From an uncultured Gammaproteobacteria bacterium (GTDB lineage: Bacteria; Pseudomonadota; Gammaproteobacteria; JADZEE01): a stretch of DNA of 44,315 nucleotides. The notes under the pieces are model-generated. The model was not told the origin of the DNA. It saw nothing but the letters and a program-made list of their open reading frames with translations, and ran no database searches. Made by a program: the position numbers and the translations under genes. The DNA is taken from positions 1 to 44,315 of the forward strand of contig CAYGQN010000001.1 in NCBI GenBank assembly GCA_964351795.1, written 5' to 3'. The stretch's first letter is position 1, and each line of letters begins with the position of its first letter. This document shows, piece by piece, positions 2,818-13,632 of this stretch.

Positions 2818-3543
2818 ATGCCCCGATGCTTAGTGAACACTGGTGATGCTATTTCCTGGCTGCAGAAACTCGACGATGCATCCGTAGATCTAGTAATAAC
2901 CGACCCACCCTATGAGTCCTTGGAAAAACACCGTTCGGTCGGAACGACCACACGCCTAAAGCATAGTAAGGCGTCAAGCAACGACTGGTTCGAAATCTTC
3001 TCAAATTCTCGCTTCGATGAACTTTTTTCCGAGTGTTTCCGCATTCTAAAAAAGAATCGACATCTATATCTATTTTGCGATCAAGAGACAATGTTCGTCG
3101 CTAAGCCCATCGCCGAGGAAATAGGCTTTAGGTTTTGGAAACCGCTCGTCTGGGACAAAATGAAGATCGGCATGGGGTATCACTATAGAGCAAGGTATGA
3201 ACTCATACTTTTTTTCGAGAAAGGCAAACGCAAGCTTAACGACTCGAGTATACCGGACATAATTCAAGTGCCGAGAATTCATCGCGGTTACCCAACAGAG
3301 AAACCAGTGGCCGTTTCCGAGGTTCTCGTGTCCCAAAGCTCTACCGCTGGAGAATTAATTGTCGATCCCTTCATGGGATCCGGTAGCGTGGGCGTGGCGG
3401 CGTTGACGCTAGGTCGCAACTTCATGGGCAACGATTTATGCGAAGAGGCAGTTACTGTAGCTATAGAGAGATTTAGGGAGATTCCGGCAACGTCGGTTAA
3501 TTCGTACAACTGGGGACACGAAACCTTGCCTTTAGATTTTTAG
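2818..3543 (+). CDS. beta-class N6-adenine/N4-cytosine DNA methyltransferase (N6_N4_Mtase-type), no adjacent endonuclease
   Basis: Motif IV (VITDPPYES, aa 27-35) precedes motif I (VDPFMGSGSVG, near aa 183-193). This permuted order is typical of beta-class MTases. TEKP lies upstream of motif I. G+C is much lower than the flanks. Confidence 0.85.
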   Translation: MPRCLVNTGDAISWLQKLDDASVDLVITDPPYESLEKHRSVGTTTRLKHSKASSNDWFEIFSNSRFDELFSECFRILKKNRHLYLFCDQETMFVAKPIAEEIGFRFWKPLVWDKMKIGMGYHYRARYELILFFEKGKRKLNDSSIPDIIQVPRIHRGYPTEKPVAVSEVLVSQSSTAGELIVDPFMGSGSVGVAALTLGRNFMGNDLCEEAVTVAIERFREIPATSVNSYNWGHETLPLDF

Positions 3544-3606
3544 CAACTGGTTTATCTGGCAAGAAATTGCGTCTTCCCATTCGCCAGGGTCCAAGAGGAT
3601 ATTGGA

Positions 3607-4683
3607 ATGGCATTAACACGCGGTGCTAGAAAGCTGTACGACTGGCTAAAGGATCAAAGCGCGGGGAGGGTTGTCCCGTTCGAGGAGGTTATGGCTATCA
3701 CCCGTTGGTCAGACGTCTCGCTTCGTACATATTTACGGAAGAACAAAGTCGCTCCGTTTCTCCAACCGCTTCAAGACCGCCAACTTAAGGTGCTCATGGA
3801 TGGCGCTGAAATTAGCGAAGCTTTCTTCGACGAAACCTTCACGCAAACGGCACCGCGAACAATATCGTTCGCTGCTGCGGACCAGCTTAACGGCGAGCAT
3901 GGCGAATACGAACTAATCGAGCCGCTTGGGAATGGAGCAGTTGGCCACGTTTGGTCCGCGAAGACTAGTGGGGAGACCACCTTGGTAGCGGCTAAGATAA
4001 TGCTACCAAGGCTTGATCTCTTGCAAGATTCGAAACTCCCAAACGTACGCGAGCGATTTAGAAAGGAGGCACGAAACGGCCAAGCGCTTACACATCCGAA
4101 TGTCGTTCGATATCTCGATCTAGGAAACATCGAGAAGAATCCGTTTCTGGTGATGGAGCTCGCAGATCGATCAATTGCTGACCTCATTAGGGAAATGAAG
4201 GTCGTTCCCGAGGAGGAAGCCGCGGAGATTGTCGACTGCGCTTTGAATGCTCTCGAATATCTACATTCCAAGGGGTGTCCACACCGGGACGTTAAACCGG
4301 CCAATTTGCTTGAGTTCCACGACACGATAAAGCTAGGCGATCTCGGAATTGTGAAATGGAGTGACTTCGATCCTGCCTTCACAAAAGGGGGGACGATTAC
4401 TCGTCAATCCGTCCAACTAGGATCGTGGTTCTACATGGCCCCTGAACAACAGGAATCTCCGCATGATGCGGTGGAAGCCTCCGACATCTACGCGCTCGCT
4501 GTAACGTGGATCGAAATGTTGGTTGGCACCTTACCGTCGCCGCAGGCCATTGGAGCGGTGGCTTACAAGATTAGGAATGCCGCTCAACCGATTCAGGAGC
4601 TAATCCAACGCATGCATTCATACGATCCAGCAGAGCGACCGCCAATTCAGGAGATTCGCGAAATCATTCAGACGACTTACTGA
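3607..4683 (+). CDS. Hanks-type Ser/Thr protein kinase with an uncharacterised ~100 aa N-terminal domain
   Basis: AGAGGA RBS about 8 nt upstream of the ATG. G-loop LGNGAVGHV, VAAK (Lys130), E in FRKEARNG, catalytic loop HRDVKPANLL (Asp228), DLG (Asp245), MAPE, DIYALAVTWIEM and DPAERP. Residues 1-100 match nothing I recognise. Low G+C; 63 nt downstream of the MTase on the same strand. Confidence 0.85.
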   Translation: MALTRGARKLYDWLKDQSAGRVVPFEEVMAITRWSDVSLRTYLRKNKVAPFLQPLQDRQLKVLMDGAEISEAFFDETFTQTAPRTISFAAADQLNGEHGEYELIEPLGNGAVGHVWSAKTSGETTLVAAKIMLPRLDLLQDSKLPNVRERFRKEARNGQALTHPNVVRYLDLGNIEKNPFLVMELADRSIADLIREMKVVPEEEAAEIVDCALNALEYLHSKGCPHRDVKPANLLEFHDTIKLGDLGIVKWSDFDPAFTKGGTITRQSVQLGSWFYMAPEQQESPHDAVEASDIYALAVTWIEMLVGTLPSPQAIGAVAYKIRNAAQPIQELIQRMHSYDPAERPPIQEIREIIQTTY

Positions 4684-4735: not shown

Positions 4736-5371
4736 TTACATTTTGGCGGGATCTACTTTGTCTTGTTCACGGAATTTTTCCCGCAGTCTTATTGTACTCG
4801 GCAGTTGGCCGACACGAATTGGCGCACCGCCGATTGAATGGCAGTAGTGTTTCTCCCCATTATTCGGAATCACGCCGCCCTGGATAGCGAAAAGCCCCAT
4901 CAAACGATTACCCAAGTTGGTCGGATGCGCTTCTGGCATGTAGGAATAATGACCAAATAGATCGGCCAGGCTTTCGGCCATGTATTTTGGCCGACCATCA
5001 CCAGACTGGAAGCCGAGAATGTCCTCTGCATAACGGATCAATTCCGCGCATGCTGATTTCCCGTCAATTACCGGCTTGGGCGGATATACGTATAGGTGCA
5101 CAGCAATTTGCTCTGGCCAAACATAGACGTATTCGTGGAGGGCATTATCTCCGAGGCTAGGTGGCCTATTCAATATCCAATAGGGATGGCTATTAGACGC
5201 TTCAATTTTTCGTTGAATTTCGAATACCCCTTTATCCATCAATGTTGTAGGGGCATTGATAAGATACGATATTGTCGGATCTGTCGCGTCGCGGTCGGCA
5301 CTTACCGATGATTCGGCAGCTACCGCTAAGGCAAGCATGGCGGTTCCAAAATATCGGATTCGAATTAGCAT
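4736..5371 (-). CDS. hypothetical secreted protein (N-terminal signal peptide)
   Basis: 211-217 aa ORF; an alternative start lies at 5389. Signal-like N-terminus MLIRIRYFGTAMLALAVAAESS. Low G+C; convergent with the kinase gene. No family recognised. Confidence 0.55.
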   Translation of the reverse strand: MLIRIRYFGTAMLALAVAAESSVSADRDATDPTISYLINAPTTLMDKGVFEIQRKIEASNSHPYWILNRPPSLGDNALHEYVYVWPEQIAVHLYVYPPKPVIDGKSACAELIRYAEDILGFQSGDGRPKYMAESLADLFGHYSYMPEAHPTNLGNRLMGLFAIQGGVIPNNGEKHYCHSIGGAPIRVGQLPSTIRLREKFREQDKVDPAKM

Positions 5372-5730
5372 GGGAGCACCCGCCTCCATTTCTTAGCATT
5401 CACAACGGGGGCGACTAGAGCGCTCGCCTCGTGCGATTGGACGATAATATGCGCTTCCTTAAAGATAGGCTACATGCTCTGGAGTGACAGAATAAGATGA
5501 AAACGACGCACCCATTCACCGGGGTTCTCATCGTGTTAGGGTGTTGCTACTAGCTGTGGATGGCCTTTTAGACTTGCAGCTTCGCGATTTGATCGATGGC
5601 ATTATCCCTCGCTTTTAATTGGCCGGTCGGCGCATGATGTTTCGGCCTCAACATTGGTTAAAATCTCTTTTTCGGTTATGTGTTGGGCGTCTTCTTCCAA
5701 TTTCATTGCAACATTTGTGAGTTCTTAGTG

Positions 5731-6102
5731 ATGGAGAGCTGCAAGATCTTATTGCTTATCTTGGCTTTTTTTTCGCCGATTACCCACGCGGAACTGATGA
5801 AGGTTCAGGACTTGCGGGGATTGCTCGATCTCGGAGAAGGGGGCGAAGCTATAGTTACGGCCTATGTGCAAGGTGTCATCGAAGGCATGGTCGGATTGGA
5901 TTCACTGAGAAAAAAAGAGCGTAACTCCCCGTACGATTTCTGCAAGATGCATGCTGACCTAGGTAAAGGACAACCGGCGCAAGAGCATCCCGCCAGTAAG
6001 GCAAGGTTTCTTGTCATCACGTGGGAGAAGAACGGTTATCCGATGGACACGCTCGCGGTTGATATGGTCTTGGCGTTTATGACGCAGAAGTACGGCTGTT
6101 GA
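5731..6102 (+). CDS. small secreted protein, possibly Rap1a/Tai4-like immunity-type fold
   Basis: Signal peptide MESCKILLLILAFFSPITHA|ELM when started at ATG 5731; the ORF is open from 5680. The mature part (YVQGVIEGM...FC...LAVDMVLAFMTQKYGC) resembles the Y-x-x-G...C...A-x-x-x-V-x-x-A...C layout I recall for Rap1a-type immunity proteins. The family call is tentative. Confidence 0.5.
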   Translation: MESCKILLLILAFFSPITHAELMKVQDLRGLLDLGEGGEAIVTAYVQGVIEGMVGLDSLRKKERNSPYDFCKMHADLGKGQPAQEHPASKARFLVITWEKNGYPMDTLAVDMVLAFMTQKYGC

Positions 6103-7725: not shown

Positions 7726-7989
7726 TCACGGTTCATCCCCTGCTGGCAAATCCGCTGGAGTGAGATCCGCGGGTTCGATAAGCACACCGTTGCGAGAGAT
7801 TTCCGGGAAATTCACGTCCGGCCTGCGGGCGAATGCGACCACCACGTCACCCAGGCGCACGGTCGGGCGGGTGGCTTCATCGAGAATGCGATGAGCAGCA
7901 TCTTCAACGCTGATTCCATGTTCGGCGGCATACCGCCTGATGCGGCGATACAAACCCTCGGGGACGTTACTTATGGTCAGGGCTGGCAC
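7726..7989 (-). CDS. FitA/VapB-like ribbon-helix-helix (Arc/MetJ-type) protein, orphan antitoxin-like, embedded in the hsd operon
   Basis: PALTISNVPEGLYRRIRRYAAEHGISVEDAAHRILDEA...VRLGDVVVAF resembles the FitA-type layout I recall: beta-strand, two helices, then a VRLG tail. Probable GTG start at 7989; the ORF is open to 8025. No PIN toxin follows it. Confidence 0.6.
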   Translation of the reverse strand: MPALTISNVPEGLYRRIRRYAAEHGISVEDAAHRILDEATRPTVRLGDVVVAFARRPDVNFPEISRNGVLIEPADLTPADLPAGDEP

Positions 7990-8064
7990 AGCACGGCTCC
8001 TGCGGAAATGGCGGCAGGCGTCCATCTCACTGCGATGTCAGGGGAATGACAAGACAATGTCATA

Positions 8065-12374: not shown

Positions 12375-12714
12375 GCATCGGGCCTGACATTGCAGTGGTA
12401 CATGAATCATGGCCAGCGAGGCCTGCAAATGCAATTGACGCGTCAGTTGCCGTGCCGGCCAGGGTGGGAGGGTGGCTTCGAGATGCCCTTCGCGGGACGG
12501 CTGGACCTGGGCGGGGTCGCTACGCTCAACGGTCGGCGGAGCGCCGACGACGCCCTGGTCCCTGACGGCCGGCACCCGGCGCGGGTACAAGCTACTCCGG
12601 TTTGGGCGGCGTCGCGGAGAGTGCGGCCGGTTAGCTTGCAGAAGCTTCGCTCAGGCCGCGATACTTCGGGCAGGCTACGGAGCATTCGAACGAGCGCCTG
12701 GACGGAGCAAGTCA

Positions 12715-13632
12715 ATGGCCATACCCGACTATCAATCAATCATGCTGCCGCTGCTGCGTTTTGCAGGCGACGATGCGGTGCATCGCTTCCGCGAGGCAAT
12801 AGAGCATCTTGCCCAGCATTTCGAGTTGTCTGATAAGGAACGGCGGGAGCTTCTACCAAGCGGGAAGCAACCCACATTCGACAATCGGGTTGGCTGGGCA
12901 CGCACCTACATGACGAAGGCGGGTTTGCTTGCGTCACCGAAGCGCGGCCAGTTCCGCATTACGGAGCTTGGGAAGAAGGTGCTCGATAAGCAGCCGGCCG
13001 CATTGAACGTTGCTTATCTTGAGCAGTTTCCTGAGTTTATGGCCTTTCGCAATCTGCGGCACGACAAGAAGGATGTCGCTGCCCCAGCGAGCCCGGCCCT
13101 GCAACCAGAGGATTCCACTCCTGAAGAGACGCTTGAAAGCGCATTCCAGAGCCTGCGCGCAGAACTGGCCAACGACGTTCTCGCCGCCGTCAGGAACTGC
13201 ACGCCCGGGTTTTTCGAACGACTGGTGGTCGACCTTGTCGTTCGCATGGGATACGGCGGTTCCCGGAAAGAGGCAGGCCAGGCCATCGGGGGCTCCGGCG
13301 ATGGCGGCATCGATGGGATCATCAAGGAAGATCGACTGGGTCTGGACATCATCTACATTCAGGCCAAACGCTGGGAGGCCGTGATTGGCCGGCCGGAGAT
13401 CCAGAAATTCGCCGGCGCGCTGCAAGGTCAGCGGGCGCGCAAAGGCATCTTCATTACAACCTCATCGTTCTCACGGGAGGCACGGGATTTTGCGGGCAGC
13501 ATCGAGACGAAGATCATCCTGATCGATGGCGAAACGCTGGTGGAATACATGATTGAAAACAACGTCGGCGTCAGCGTGGAGGCAACTTACGAGCTGAAGC
13601 ACATCGACAGCGATTATTTCGTCGAGGACTGA
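12715..13632 (+). CDS. mrr: Mrr-family type IV (modification-dependent) restriction endonuclease
   Basis: Mrr_N-like winged helix (MAIPDYQSIMLPLLRF...FDNRVGWARTYMTKAGLL). Mrr_cat core with GDGGIDGII...IIYIQAKRW, a D...(Q/E)xK nuclease motif. Divergent from hsdR. Confidence 0.9.
   Translation: MAIPDYQSIMLPLLRFAGDDAVHRFREAIEHLAQHFELSDKERRELLPSGKQPTFDNRVGWARTYMTKAGLLASPKRGQFRITELGKKVLDKQPAALNVAYLEQFPEFMAFRNLRHDKKDVAAPASPALQPEDSTPEETLESAFQSLRAELANDVLAAVRNCTPGFFERLVVDLVVRMGYGGSRKEAGQAIGGSGDGGIDGIIKEDRLGLDIIYIQAKRWEAVIGRPEIQKFAGALQGQRARKGIFITTSSFSREARDFAGSIETKIILIDGETLVEYMIENNVGVSVEATYELKHIDSDYFVED

What the first reader, a model, noticed from the sequence alone, without database searches (positions are those of the whole stretch)
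2818..4683. Compact DNA methyltransferase + Hanks-type Ser/Thr kinase cassette: candidate two-gene defence module
Seen: two co-directional genes 63 nt apart in the lowest-G+C part of the island. Gene 1 is a 241-aa beta-class N6A/N4C methyltransferase (DPPY before FMGSGS), and no endonuclease-like ORF is adjacent. Gene 2 is a 358-aa protein. Its residues ~101-355 carry every Hanks subdomain with catalytic residues intact (Lys130 in VAAK, Asp228 in HRDVKPANLL, Asp245 in DLG, MAPE). The first ~100 aa are a separate domain I cannot assign; it could be a winged-helix or sensor domain. Established: eukaryote-like kinases act in phage defence. PglW works with the PglX methyltransferase in Pgl/BREX type 2, and Stk2-type abortive infection uses a single gene. 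Those systems are either large multi-gene loci or single genes. Inference: a minimal small MTase + small kinase pair is not among the described systems I know. Here it sits directly beside a type I R-M locus, Mrr and several TA loci, which is guilt by association. The kinase could be the effector, for example abortive phosphorylation of host or phage proteins, with the MTase marking self DNA or acting as a guarded partner.
Basis: partly seen in the sequence, partly recalled or inferred. Interest (0 to 1): 0.82.

Follow-up and report, generated by a model that had tools for sequence, protein, structure and literature searches.

The report
Conserved DNA methyltransferase plus winged-helix kinase pair
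A small DNA methyltransferase and a protein kinase carrying a DNA-binding winged-helix domain form a tightly linked, co-evolving gene pair that moves between distant bacterial phyla, appears to descend from a restriction-modification system whose nuclease was lost, and is a credible but untested anti-phage or addiction module that I did not find catalogued.

Summary
A 241-aa beta-class N6/N4 DNA MTase (2818-3543) and a 358-aa protein with an intact Hanks kinase domain (3607-4683) lie 63 nt apart in a low-GC island. The kinase's first ~85 residues fold as a winged helix (wHTH) with no Pfam or PADLOC match. The pairing is not chance. A 65-77% identical MTase is adjacent in 27 of 29 informative related loci from at least four phyla, against 0 of 80 generic-kinase control loci. 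Three of three reverse look-ups from the MTase found a kinase next door. Pairwise identities of the two proteins correlate at r=0.91. Deep-branching relatives add a PDDEXK_11 nuclease next to the MTase, giving a type II R-M plus wHTH-kinase; one nuclease copy is visibly decaying. Crown clades, including this window, keep only MTase and kinase. The same wHTH also heads PDC-S19 nuclease-like candidate defence proteins. The pair fails the membership tests for MADS, BREX type 2/Pgl and Stk2; PD-T4-6 similarity is limited to the kinase domain. Best reading: a methylation-linked kinase effector module for abortive infection or addiction, derived from an R-M system. Function and mechanism are inferred, not shown. 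A C-protein-like regulator role is the main rival.

The parts
2818..3543 (+). Beta-class DNA MTase, 241 aa. Motif IV DPPY at residues 29-32, motif I FMGSGS at 185-190. m6A activity is predicted from DPPY. Residues 21-60 are about 95% conserved across the family, which implies one fixed specificity.
   Evidence: Pfam PF01555 E=1.9e-34; PADLOC MTase_II E=1.5e-36; motif and conservation counts; only remote PDB relatives such as CcrM, DpnA and M.MboIIA.
3544..3606 (+). 63-nt intergenic spacer with a ribosome-binding site AAGAGGA at 3593-3599. No terminator, so the two genes are probably co-transcribed.
   Evidence: Sequence; terminator scan; no motif shared across loci.
3607..3858 (+). N-terminal winged-helix domain of the kinase protein, residues 1-84. 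Topology H1-b1-H2-H3-b2-b3 plus helix 4. Invariant W13, W34, Y42, K45, K47, F51, G66 and the F74-x-E76-x-F78-x-Q80 motif. This is an uncatalogued family.
   Evidence: AF2 pLDDT 88.8. Foldseek hits are all wHTH regulators, but none reaches E<=1e-3. No Pfam or PADLOC hit at E<=10. Only 75 clusters match among 1.84 billion representatives. Homologous to the N-terminus of PDC-S19 proteins: hhalign probability 96.7%, E=3.6e-10.
3901..4671 (+). Hanks-type Ser/Thr kinase domain, residues 99-355, with all catalytic residues intact. The activation segment (residues 245-280) is long and highly conserved, and is modelled as disordered at 248-271.
   Evidence: Pfam Pkinase E=3e-37; invariant catalytic residues; AF2 full-length pLDDT 84.2, pTM 0.79; Foldseek matches to Aurora A, PknB and PknI at E~1e-15; PADLOC mad6 2.2e-47 and PD-T4-6 6.7e-47, kinase domain only.
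3607..4683 (+). Complete wHTH-kinase gene, 358 aa plus stop codon.
   Evidence: ORF list. More than 120 full-length family clusters at 51-80% identity, nearly all at 98-100% coverage.

Best explanation
The two genes form one mobile, functionally coupled module that descends from a type II restriction-modification system (beta-class MTase plus PDDEXK_11 nuclease) which had acquired a winged-helix protein fused to a Hanks kinase. In the crown clades, including this window, the nuclease has been lost and only the MTase and the wHTH-kinase are kept. Most likely mode of action (inferred): the MTase keeps a fixed short site on resident DNA methylated. The wHTH-kinase uses its winged helix to engage DNA, or the MTase-DNA state, and is held inactive while sites are modified. 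Unmodified DNA, from an incoming phage or plasmid or from loss of the module, then lets the kinase activate, probably by autophosphorylation of its long conserved activation segment. It would phosphorylate host or phage proteins and cause growth arrest or abortive infection. In that reading the kinase takes the place of the nuclease as the toxic arm and the MTase is the antidote and self-marker. Shown here: gene structure, intact catalytic motifs, the wHTH fold, conserved adjacency, co-evolution, relation to PDDEXK_11 loci, and defence-rich neighbourhoods. Inferred: defence or addiction function, methylation dependence, the kinase as effector, and every mechanistic step.
For: Adjacency: an MTase homologue at 65-77% identity lies next to the wHTH-kinase in 27 of 29 loci with upstream DNA. 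It is usually co-directional, but divergent in L105, L106 and L108, so linkage survives rearrangement. Control: 0 of 80 generic Hanks-kinase loci (1.1 Mb) carry this MTase. Reverse test: 3 of 3 MTase homologues on unrelated long contigs have a 359-375-aa kinase next door. There are 29 exact contig-length matches between the truncated top-120 lists. Co-evolution: r=0.91, Mantel 0/2000, over 22 unique pairs. Breadth: Gammaproteobacteria, Acidobacteriota, Cyanobacteria and Myxococcota. Catalytic residues of both enzymes are conserved. R-M origin: PDDEXK_11 (E~1e-40) lies beside the MTase in L004, L104, L106, L107, L115 and L123. These loci sit on deep branches of the MTase tree. L004's nuclease has lost its catalytic Asp and Lys while the MTase and kinase stay intact. 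The MTase is retained after nuclease loss, which argues that the kinase needs it. The same wHTH heads other candidate defence proteins, PDC-S19 and a PDC-S01-like ATPase, found in defence hotspots. The kinase domain is closest to defence kinases mad6 and PD-T4-6. Neighbours include TIR, PIN/Phd, NERD, HsdR, HigB and integrases; the window adds type I R-M, Mrr and antitoxins.
Against: There are no functional data of any kind. Genuine stand-alone wHTH genes occur in MTase+PDDEXK_11 loci (L107, L123), so the wHTH has a role without a kinase, possibly as an R-M controller. The wHTH-PDC-S19 relatives have no dedicated MTase, so the wHTH is not intrinsically a methylation reader. Close MTase relatives (60-68% identity) live as orphans on plasmids and a phage-plasmid, so this MTase can act alone, for example in anti-restriction. 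The family was not found on catalogued plasmids or phages. Defence enrichment of the neighbourhoods was not tested statistically. The tree is neighbour-joining without support values. Two loci (L103, L110) show no MTase in the limited flank available.
Confidence: 0.5

Rival explanations
1. Regulator model. The wHTH-kinase is a signal-responsive controller of the adjacent MTase or R-M genes, analogous to a C-protein. The wHTH binds an operator and the kinase modulates that binding or phosphorylates the MTase. In nuclease-less loci the pair would be an orphan MTase with its leftover regulator, perhaps an epigenetic switch.
For: Stand-alone wHTH genes sit in MTase+PDDEXK_11 loci at controller-like positions: L107 is wHTH then M then R, and L123 is M then R then wHTH. 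All fold matches are wHTH transcription regulators such as CymR, MarR, GntR and OmpR. There is a precedent for a kinase plus DNA-binding partner controlling an adjacent immune operon: CapK/CapS (PMC13373217).
Against: No operator-like motif is shared across loci, either upstream of the MTase or between the genes, although the recognition helix is invariant family-wide. Only subclade-specific promoter-like strings were found, and the window has none of them. CapK is an anti-sigma-type kinase, not a Hanks kinase, so it is not homologous. A full active kinase is conserved across phyla in loci where the only thing left to regulate is one small MTase. The same wHTH is fused to nuclease and ATPase effectors in single-gene defence candidates.
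Confidence: 0.22
2. Guard model. The kinase monitors the MTase, or SAM availability, by protein-protein contact. It fires when a phage anti-restriction factor such as a DNA mimic or a SAM hydrolase disables the MTase. This would resemble the way PrrC guards EcoprrI.
For: Co-evolution at r=0.91 between the two proteins is what a physical complex would give. The MTase is retained after nuclease loss. In the trio loci the kinase would act as a backup to a normal R-M system. The PrrC-EcoprrI comparison rests on my own knowledge, not a tool result.
Against: No interaction was tested because no multimer prediction was available. A DNA-binding wHTH is not required by this model. The divergent gene orientation in some loci is neutral.
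Confidence: 0.15
3. Coincidental neighbours. A PD-T4-6-like single-gene abortive-infection kinase and an unrelated orphan or anti-restriction MTase merely share a defence island.
For: PD-T4-6 models hit the kinase domain at E=6.7e-47. MTase relatives occur alone on plasmids.
Against: Adjacency is 27/29 against 0/80 controls. The reverse test gave 3/3. Mantel r=0.91. Linkage is maintained across phyla and through changes of orientation.
Confidence: 0.04

Closest known systems
MADS (methylation-associated defence system, mad1-mad8; bioRxiv 10.1101/2023.03.30.534895)
   Same: [quoted passage not shown]
   Different: MADS is an 8-gene operon with MAD6/7/8 mandatory, a specificity subunit and a bipartite motif. 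Here there are two genes and a 241-aa beta-class MTase with no specificity subunit. The NCBIfam MAD6 score is 109 bits against a cut-off of 460. The wHTH has no mad1 or other PADLOC match.
BREX type 2 / Pgl (PglX MTase + PglW kinase + PglY/PglZ)
   Same: An MTase and a Ser/Thr kinase cooperate in phage defence, and PglW also carries wHTH modules (PMC12839542).
   Different: PglW is a 1400-1600-aa protein made of NERD-REase, a pseudokinase, a kinase and wHTH modules. The PglW models score only E=2.1e-13, or 40.8 bits against a cut-off of 990, over the kinase domain alone. No PADLOC hit of any kind, PglZ- or BrxC-like included, in the two ORFs downstream of the pair; from my own knowledge, PglX is a large gamma-class MTase.
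PD-T4-6 (single-gene Ser/Thr kinase defence; Vassallo et al. 2022, PMC9519451)
   Same: A small cytoplasmic Hanks kinase found in defence islands. PADLOC PD-T4-6 models hit at E=6.7e-47. An MTase+PDDEXK_11 locus (L115) carries a closer PD-T4-6-like kinase (2e-68).
   Different: The hit covers only the kinase domain (profile positions 8-215 of 292). PD-T4-6 acts as a single gene, whereas this family carries a unique wHTH and is almost always linked to a specific MTase.
Type II restriction-modification (beta-class MTase + PD-(D/E)XK nuclease, optionally a C protein)
   Same: The MTase is a typical type II beta-class enzyme. Sister loci carry an overlapping or adjacent PDDEXK_11 nuclease gene. 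The selfish, mobile behaviour is also similar.
   Different: The window and the crown clades have no nuclease. A wHTH-kinase is the conserved partner instead, and no C-box-like operator was found.
PADLOC candidate PDC-S19 (DUF3644 + EC042_2821 REase-like)
   Same: A subset carries a homologous N-terminal wHTH (hhalign probability 96.7%) and lies in defence hotspots.
   Different: The effector is nuclease-like rather than a kinase. These are single genes with no dedicated MTase. Only the wHTH is shared.

Membership tests
MADS | MAD6 equivalog-level kinase (NCBIfam NF047741, cut-off 460 bits) | tested here: not met
   109.2 bits, matched over two stretches (best stretch residues 195-355). The PADLOC mad6 hit covers only profile positions 50-312 of 659.
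MADS | Mandatory MAD7 and MAD8 genes within an 8-gene operon (MacSyFinder model) | tested here: not met
   The operon is two genes. The two ORFs downstream of the pair have no PADLOC hit at all. Related loci share no further conserved gene.
MADS | mad1-like small HTH protein | tested here: not met
   The window N-domain has no PADLOC hit even at E<=10. Only the distant relative P0307 weakly touches mad1.
BREX type 2 / Pgl | PglW architecture: NERD-REase, pseudokinase, kinase and wHTH modules, about 1400 aa | tested here: not met
   NCBIfam BREX_PglW scores 40.8 bits against a cut-off of 990. PADLOC PglW E=2.1e-13, kinase domain only. The protein here is 358 aa.
BREX type 2 / Pgl | PglZ, BrxC/PglY and the large PglX MTase present in the locus | tested here: not met
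   The MTase is a 241-aa beta-class enzyme. The two ORFs downstream of the pair have no PADLOC or Pfam hits.
PD-T4-6 | Match to the PD-T4-6 kinase models | tested here: inconclusive
   E=6.7e-47, but over the kinase domain only (residues 98-314; profile 8-215 of 292). This is barely better than generic PknB at 1.2e-40.
PD-T4-6 | Functions as a stand-alone single gene | tested here: not met
   The family is linked to a specific MTase in 27/29 loci and co-evolves with it.
Stk2 abortive infection | Match to the Stk2 model across the protein | tested here: not met
   PADLOC Stk2 E=4.3e-18 over residues 145-297 only.
Type II R-M system | DNA MTase with catalytic motifs IV and I | tested here: met
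   DPPY and FMGSGS are present; PF01555 E=1.9e-34.
Type II R-M system | Cognate restriction endonuclease gene adjacent | tested here: not met
   None in the window. PDDEXK_11 is present only in sister loci L004, L104, L106, L107, L115 and L123.
C-protein-controlled R-M / CapK-CapS-type regulator | Conserved operator bound by the DNA-binding module near its own promoter | tested here: not met
   k-mer and palindrome survey of the upstream and intergenic regions of 22-27 loci found only subclade-specific strings and nothing shared with the window. This is a weak test because no binding data exist.
C-protein-controlled R-M / CapK-CapS-type regulator | Anti-sigma-factor (GHKL) type kinase with a STAS-domain substrate | tested here: not met
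   The kinase here has the Hanks fold. CapK is described as anti-sigma-like.
Methylation-dependent defence in general | MTase methylates host DNA at a defined motif and methylation blocks the effector | not testable with these tools
   This needs a SMRT or ONT methylome and genetics.

The most novel reading that the evidence does not exclude
This is a 'signalling' restriction-modification system, descended from R-M, in which a DNA-reading Ser/Thr kinase has replaced the nuclease. Recognition of unmethylated sites by the winged helix would be converted into protein phosphorylation and abortive infection or post-segregational arrest, instead of DNA cleavage. That would make it the minimal two-gene form of methylation-gated kinase immunity, and a captured evolutionary intermediate between classical R-M and kinase-containing systems such as Pgl/BREX type 2 and MADS.
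Probability: 0.3. Interest if true: 0.85.

Novelty: new variant of a known kind. Interest (0 to 1): 0.64.

Why it matters
Kinases occur in several methylation-based defence systems (Pgl/BREX type 2, MADS), but these are large loci in which the kinase's role is hard to isolate. A two-gene version would be the simplest tractable model for how DNA methylation state is coupled to a protein-phosphorylation response. It has one small MTase and one small kinase with a single DNA-binding domain, and it is widespread and strongly conserved. The sister loci, which have an intact nuclease, a decaying one or none, also offer a rare view of an R-M system exchanging its nuclease for a different toxic effector. 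The uncatalogued wHTH is shared with PDC-S19-type candidates and adds a new sensor or targeting module to the defence-domain vocabulary. I found no family-specific model for the pair in PADLOC v2, Pfam or NCBIfam, so automated annotation would call it at most 'type II MTase' plus a generic or PD-T4-6-like kinase.

Tried and rejected
(1) The genome-contig scan with the full-length kinase alignment picked catalytic-loop patterns and returned 80 generic kinases. The scan was wasted for synteny, so I reused those loci as a negative control.
(2) The mad1 lead: a distant wHTH relative (P0307) weakly hit mad1, but the window N-domain and its close relatives do not. Rejected.
(3) Operator search upstream of the MTase and in the intergenic spacer found only subclade-specific promoter-like or coding strings.
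(4) Plasmid and phage collections hold no member of the kinase family, and PDDEXK_11 is absent from plasmids.
(5) Stand-alone wHTH P0247/L122 proved to be a frameshift artefact. L107 and L123 are genuine.
(6) CapK/CapS was considered as a homologue and rejected, because it has a different kinase fold. I kept it only as a conceptual precedent for the regulator rival.
(7) The DefensePredictor and BREX-diversity papers were checked for a prior description; none was found. Searches for PDDEXK_11/PF20472 in the literature returned nothing.
(8) The wHTH-PDC-S19 relatives were checked for an adjacent small MTase, which would have supported a methylation-reader role for the wHTH. None was found.
(9) Cluster look-up for organism names returned no names, so the window's organism remains unidentified.
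Full report
OBSERVATION. The first is a 241-aa protein at 2818-3543 (+). The second is a 358-aa protein at 3607-4683 (+), 63 nt downstream. A ribosome-binding site (AAGAGGA) lies 7 nt before the second ATG, and there is no terminator-like element between the genes. Gene 1 is a PF01555 N6_N4 DNA MTase (E=1.9e-34). DPPY at residues 29-32 precedes FMGSGS at 185-190, which is the beta-class order. Gene 2 has a Pkinase domain over residues 101-351 (E=3e-37). K130, E154, HRD226-228, N233, DLG245-247 and the APE Glu are invariant across 49 family members. GC content is 0.49-0.50 at 3-6 kb against 0.60-0.71 in the flanks. The two neighbouring ORFs, 4736-5389 (-) and 5680-6102 (+), match nothing in Pfam, PADLOC or NCBIfam, so no nuclease is adjacent here. 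By direct translation the wider island (about 2.6-16 kb) holds a type I hsdM/hsdS/hsdR locus. Pfam adds a FitA-like RHH antitoxin, Mrr (Mrr_N + Mrr_cat) and a BrnA-like antitoxin. Core genes follow: amidase, RND efflux and dehydrogenases.

THE N-TERMINAL DOMAIN. Residues 1-84 are as conserved as the kinase domain, with invariant W13, W34, Y42, K45, K47, F51, G66 and F74-x-E76-x-F78-x-Q80. AlphaFold2 on a 24-sequence alignment gives pLDDT 88.8. The topology is H1-b1-H2-H3-b2-b3 plus a fourth helix, which is a winged helix. Every Foldseek PDB match is a wHTH DNA-binding domain (CymR/Rrf2, MarR, GntR, OmpR, Z-alpha), with probability up to 0.99 and TM up to 0.57. None reaches E<=0.001. The domain has no Pfam or PADLOC match even at E<=10. 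A profile search of 1.84 billion cluster representatives finds only 75 clusters. It is therefore a rare, uncatalogued wHTH family. The full-length model (pLDDT 84.2, pTM 0.79) has only the activation loop, residues 248-271, disordered. The kinase domain resembles ordinary active Hanks kinases such as Aurora A, PknB and PknI.

IS THE PAIRING REAL? The kinase belongs to a full-length family of more than 120 clusters at 90% identity. These are mostly 354-374 aa and 51-80% identical, nearly all at 98-100% coverage. They come from Gammaproteobacteria, Acidobacteriota (Blastocatellia, Pyrinomonadaceae), Cyanobacteria (Leptolyngbya and relatives) and Myxococcota (Nannocystaceae). Three neighbourhood look-ups in three phyla each showed an N6_N4 MTase immediately upstream. 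I then ran a family-specific scan with the wHTH alignment. It gave 26 metagenome loci and 1 locus labelled viral.

Across all family loci, a homologue of the window MTase at 65-77% identity is adjacent in 27 of the 29 loci that have upstream DNA. It is usually co-directional with a short gap. In L105, L106 and L108 it is divergent, so adjacency survives rearrangement. My mis-aimed genome scan returned 80 generic Hanks-kinase loci (1.1 Mb), which I used as a control. None contains this MTase or the wHTH. In the reverse direction, three MTase homologues on long contigs absent from the kinase list all lie beside a 359-375-aa kinase. In addition, 29 exact contig lengths are shared between the two truncated top-120 lists.

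Pairwise identities of the MTase and the kinase correlate at r=0.91 over 22 unique pairs, and 0 of 2000 Mantel permutations reached that value. Both enzymes keep their catalytic motifs: DPPY in 28 of 31 and FxGSGS nearly invariant. MTase residues 21-60 are about 95% conserved, which implies one fixed specificity. I conclude with high confidence that the two genes are inherited, transferred and selected as one unit.

RELATION TO RESTRICTION-MODIFICATION. In a minority of loci (L004/5, L104, L106, L107, L115, L123) a PF20472 PDDEXK_11 gene (E~1e-40) overlaps or abuts the MTase gene. That gives a canonical type II R-M pair plus the wHTH-kinase. Five of these nucleases keep the D...E-x-K core. L004's copy has a 17-aa deletion that removes the catalytic Asp, a second deletion, and ECK changed to ECN, while the neighbouring MTase and kinase are intact. 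In L104 the kinase is split by an insertion sequence.

On a midpoint-rooted neighbour-joining tree of the MTases, plasmid-borne orphan relatives form the outgroup. The nuclease-containing loci occupy deep branches, and the loci with only MTase and kinase form the crown clades that include the window. The tree has no support values, so this is suggestive only. The simplest history is that an R-M system acquired a wHTH(-kinase) partner and then lost the nuclease. Retention of the MTase after nuclease loss is the main argument that the kinase itself depends on the MTase or on methylation.

Two genuine stand-alone wHTH genes exist, and both lie in MTase+PDDEXK_11 loci (L107, L123). A third apparent case (L122) is a frameshift artefact. 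L115 pairs the same MTase clade and nuclease with a different, PD-T4-6-like kinase that lacks the wHTH.

OTHER CONTEXTS OF THE PARTS. Relatives of the MTase at 60-68% identity are solitary genes on mobile elements. One sits on 4.9-kb mobilizable Col plasmids of Raoultella, Klebsiella and E. coli. Another is on a Salinivibrio megaplasmid, and a third on an Aeromonas phage-plasmid that also encodes Lar. The wHTH is homologous to the N-terminus of a 44-cluster family with DUF3644 plus an EC042_2821 REase-like domain (hhalign probability 96.7%, E=3.6e-10). That family is PADLOC candidate PDC-S19, whose profile does not include the wHTH. Its members are single genes. They lie beside TIR and type III-like R-M genes, beside a SNIPE/T5orf172 nuclease, or in a P2-like prophage between the gpA and portal genes (the position of a described P2 defence hotspot, from my own knowledge), and none has a dedicated small MTase. 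A further relative fuses the wHTH to an AAA_14 ATPase. The wHTH is thus a portable N-terminal module of candidate defence effectors, but it is not intrinsically tied to methylation.

MECHANISM. My best-supported reading (confidence about 0.5) is a methylation-linked kinase effector module. The MTase keeps resident DNA modified at a fixed site. The wHTH-kinase engages DNA, or the MTase-DNA state. Unmodified DNA, or loss of the module, permits kinase activation, and phosphorylation of cellular or phage targets then causes arrest or abortive infection. In this reading the kinase functionally replaces the lost nuclease. Only the anatomy, linkage, co-evolution and evolutionary context are shown here. 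Every functional step is inferred.

The main rival (about 0.22) is that the wHTH-kinase is a C-protein-like, signal-responsive regulator of the MTase or R-M genes. The stand-alone wHTH genes in R-M loci support it, as does the CapK/CapS precedent (PMC13373217). Against it, I found no operator shared across loci despite an invariant recognition helix. CapK is also a different kinase fold. A guard model, in which the kinase monitors the MTase, is possible (about 0.15) and could not be tested without complex prediction. Mere co-location of two independent genes is effectively excluded by the synteny, control and Mantel results.

COMPARISON WITH KNOWN SYSTEMS. The kinase domain's best defence-library hits are mad6 (2.2e-47) and PD-T4-6 (6.7e-47). 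Both cover the kinase domain only.
- MADS membership fails. The NCBIfam MAD6 score is 109 bits against a cut-off of 460. The mandatory MAD7 and MAD8 genes and the 8-gene, specificity-subunit architecture are absent. The wHTH is not mad1.
- BREX type 2/Pgl membership fails. The PglW score is 40.8 bits against 990. PglW is a multidomain protein of about 1400 aa, and no PglZ or BrxC is present.
- Stk2 matches only partially.
- PD-T4-6 membership is inconclusive at the domain level, and fails on the stand-alone criterion.
- Type II R-M membership is met for the MTase but not for an adjacent nuclease in this window.

Seven literature searches and four papers read turned up no description of a small MTase plus wHTH-kinase pair. 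That library is incomplete, so prior description elsewhere cannot be excluded.

VERDICT. The finding is real and the pair is a genuine, widespread, co-evolving module. I class it as a new variant of a known kind, namely methylation-associated kinase systems and R-M derivatives. It has an uncatalogued wHTH and an informative evolutionary series running from R-M plus kinase to MTase plus kinase. Function is untested. Interest is 0.64. The most novel reading not excluded is a 'signalling R-M' in which a DNA-reading kinase replaces the nuclease. I give that a probability of about 0.3 and an interest of 0.85 if true.

Noticed in passing
L001 2749-5128; L113 3470-5894; L114 3670-5950: A second MTase-plus-effector pair sits immediately upstream of the MTase-kinase pair in three loci. 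It consists of a D12-class MTase (415-522 aa) with either a TIR_2 protein (293 aa, opposite strand) or a 305-aa protein with weak SIR2-like similarity. This may be another methylation-linked module.
   Followed up: no
window 7726-8025 (-): A FitA-like ribbon-helix-helix antitoxin gene lies between hsdS and hsdM of the type I R-M locus. The 5' extension of the hsdM ORF overlaps it. No cognate toxin was identified.
   Followed up: partly
window 12472-13632 (+): An Mrr type IV restriction enzyme (Mrr_N + Mrr_cat) lies right after hsdR, in the same island as a predicted m6A MTase. The MTase's product must therefore be tolerated by this Mrr.
   Followed up: partly
window 4736-5389 (-) and 5680-6102 (+): Two low-GC ORFs with signal-peptide-like N-termini lie between the kinase and the type I R-M locus. 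They have no family hit and no homologue in any related locus. They look like cargo of the same insertion, but their function is unknown.
   Followed up: partly
L118 5001-6311 (Serratia liquefaciens); L116; L117: wHTH + DUF3644 (+ EC042_2821 REase-like) proteins, which are PADLOC candidate PDC-S19, share the kinase's N-domain. They sit in a P2-like prophage between the gpA and portal genes (a known defence hotspot position, from my own knowledge), beside a SNIPE/T5orf172 nuclease, and beside TIR plus a type III-like R-M.
   Followed up: partly
L110 357-1481 (-) and 1594-2465 (+): The most divergent wHTH-kinase (37% N-domain identity) is head-to-head with a dCMP-deaminase + NUDIX fusion protein rather than an MTase. 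This is a defence-like nucleotide-manipulating partner.
   Followed up: no
L115 4726-7268: The same MTase clade plus PDDEXK_11 is paired with a different, PD-T4-6-like kinase (E=2e-68) that lacks the wHTH and is divergently transcribed. This suggests kinases were recruited to this R-M type more than once.
   Followed up: partly
L104 7986-10258; L004 5590-5967: Signs of decay. The L104 kinase is interrupted by an IS transposase gene. The L004 PDDEXK_11 gene has deletions removing the catalytic Asp and an ECK-to-ECN change.
   Followed up: yes
L003 7220-7801; L087; L091; L095; L112: Cyanobacterial loci share a conserved 193-aa gene directly downstream of the kinase, at 75-88% identity, with no Pfam or PADLOC hit. 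It may be a lineage-specific third component.
   Followed up: partly
L119 (NZ_CP074190.1, 4906 bp) and identical-size plasmids in Klebsiella and E. coli: A 65% identical orphan MTase is the only non-backbone cargo, apart from a RelE/ParE toxin and NadS, on small mobilizable Col(Ye4449) plasmids. This may be an anti-restriction use of the same specificity.
   Followed up: partly
It is probably a whole bacterial contig labelled viral, not evidence of phage carriage.
   Followed up: no
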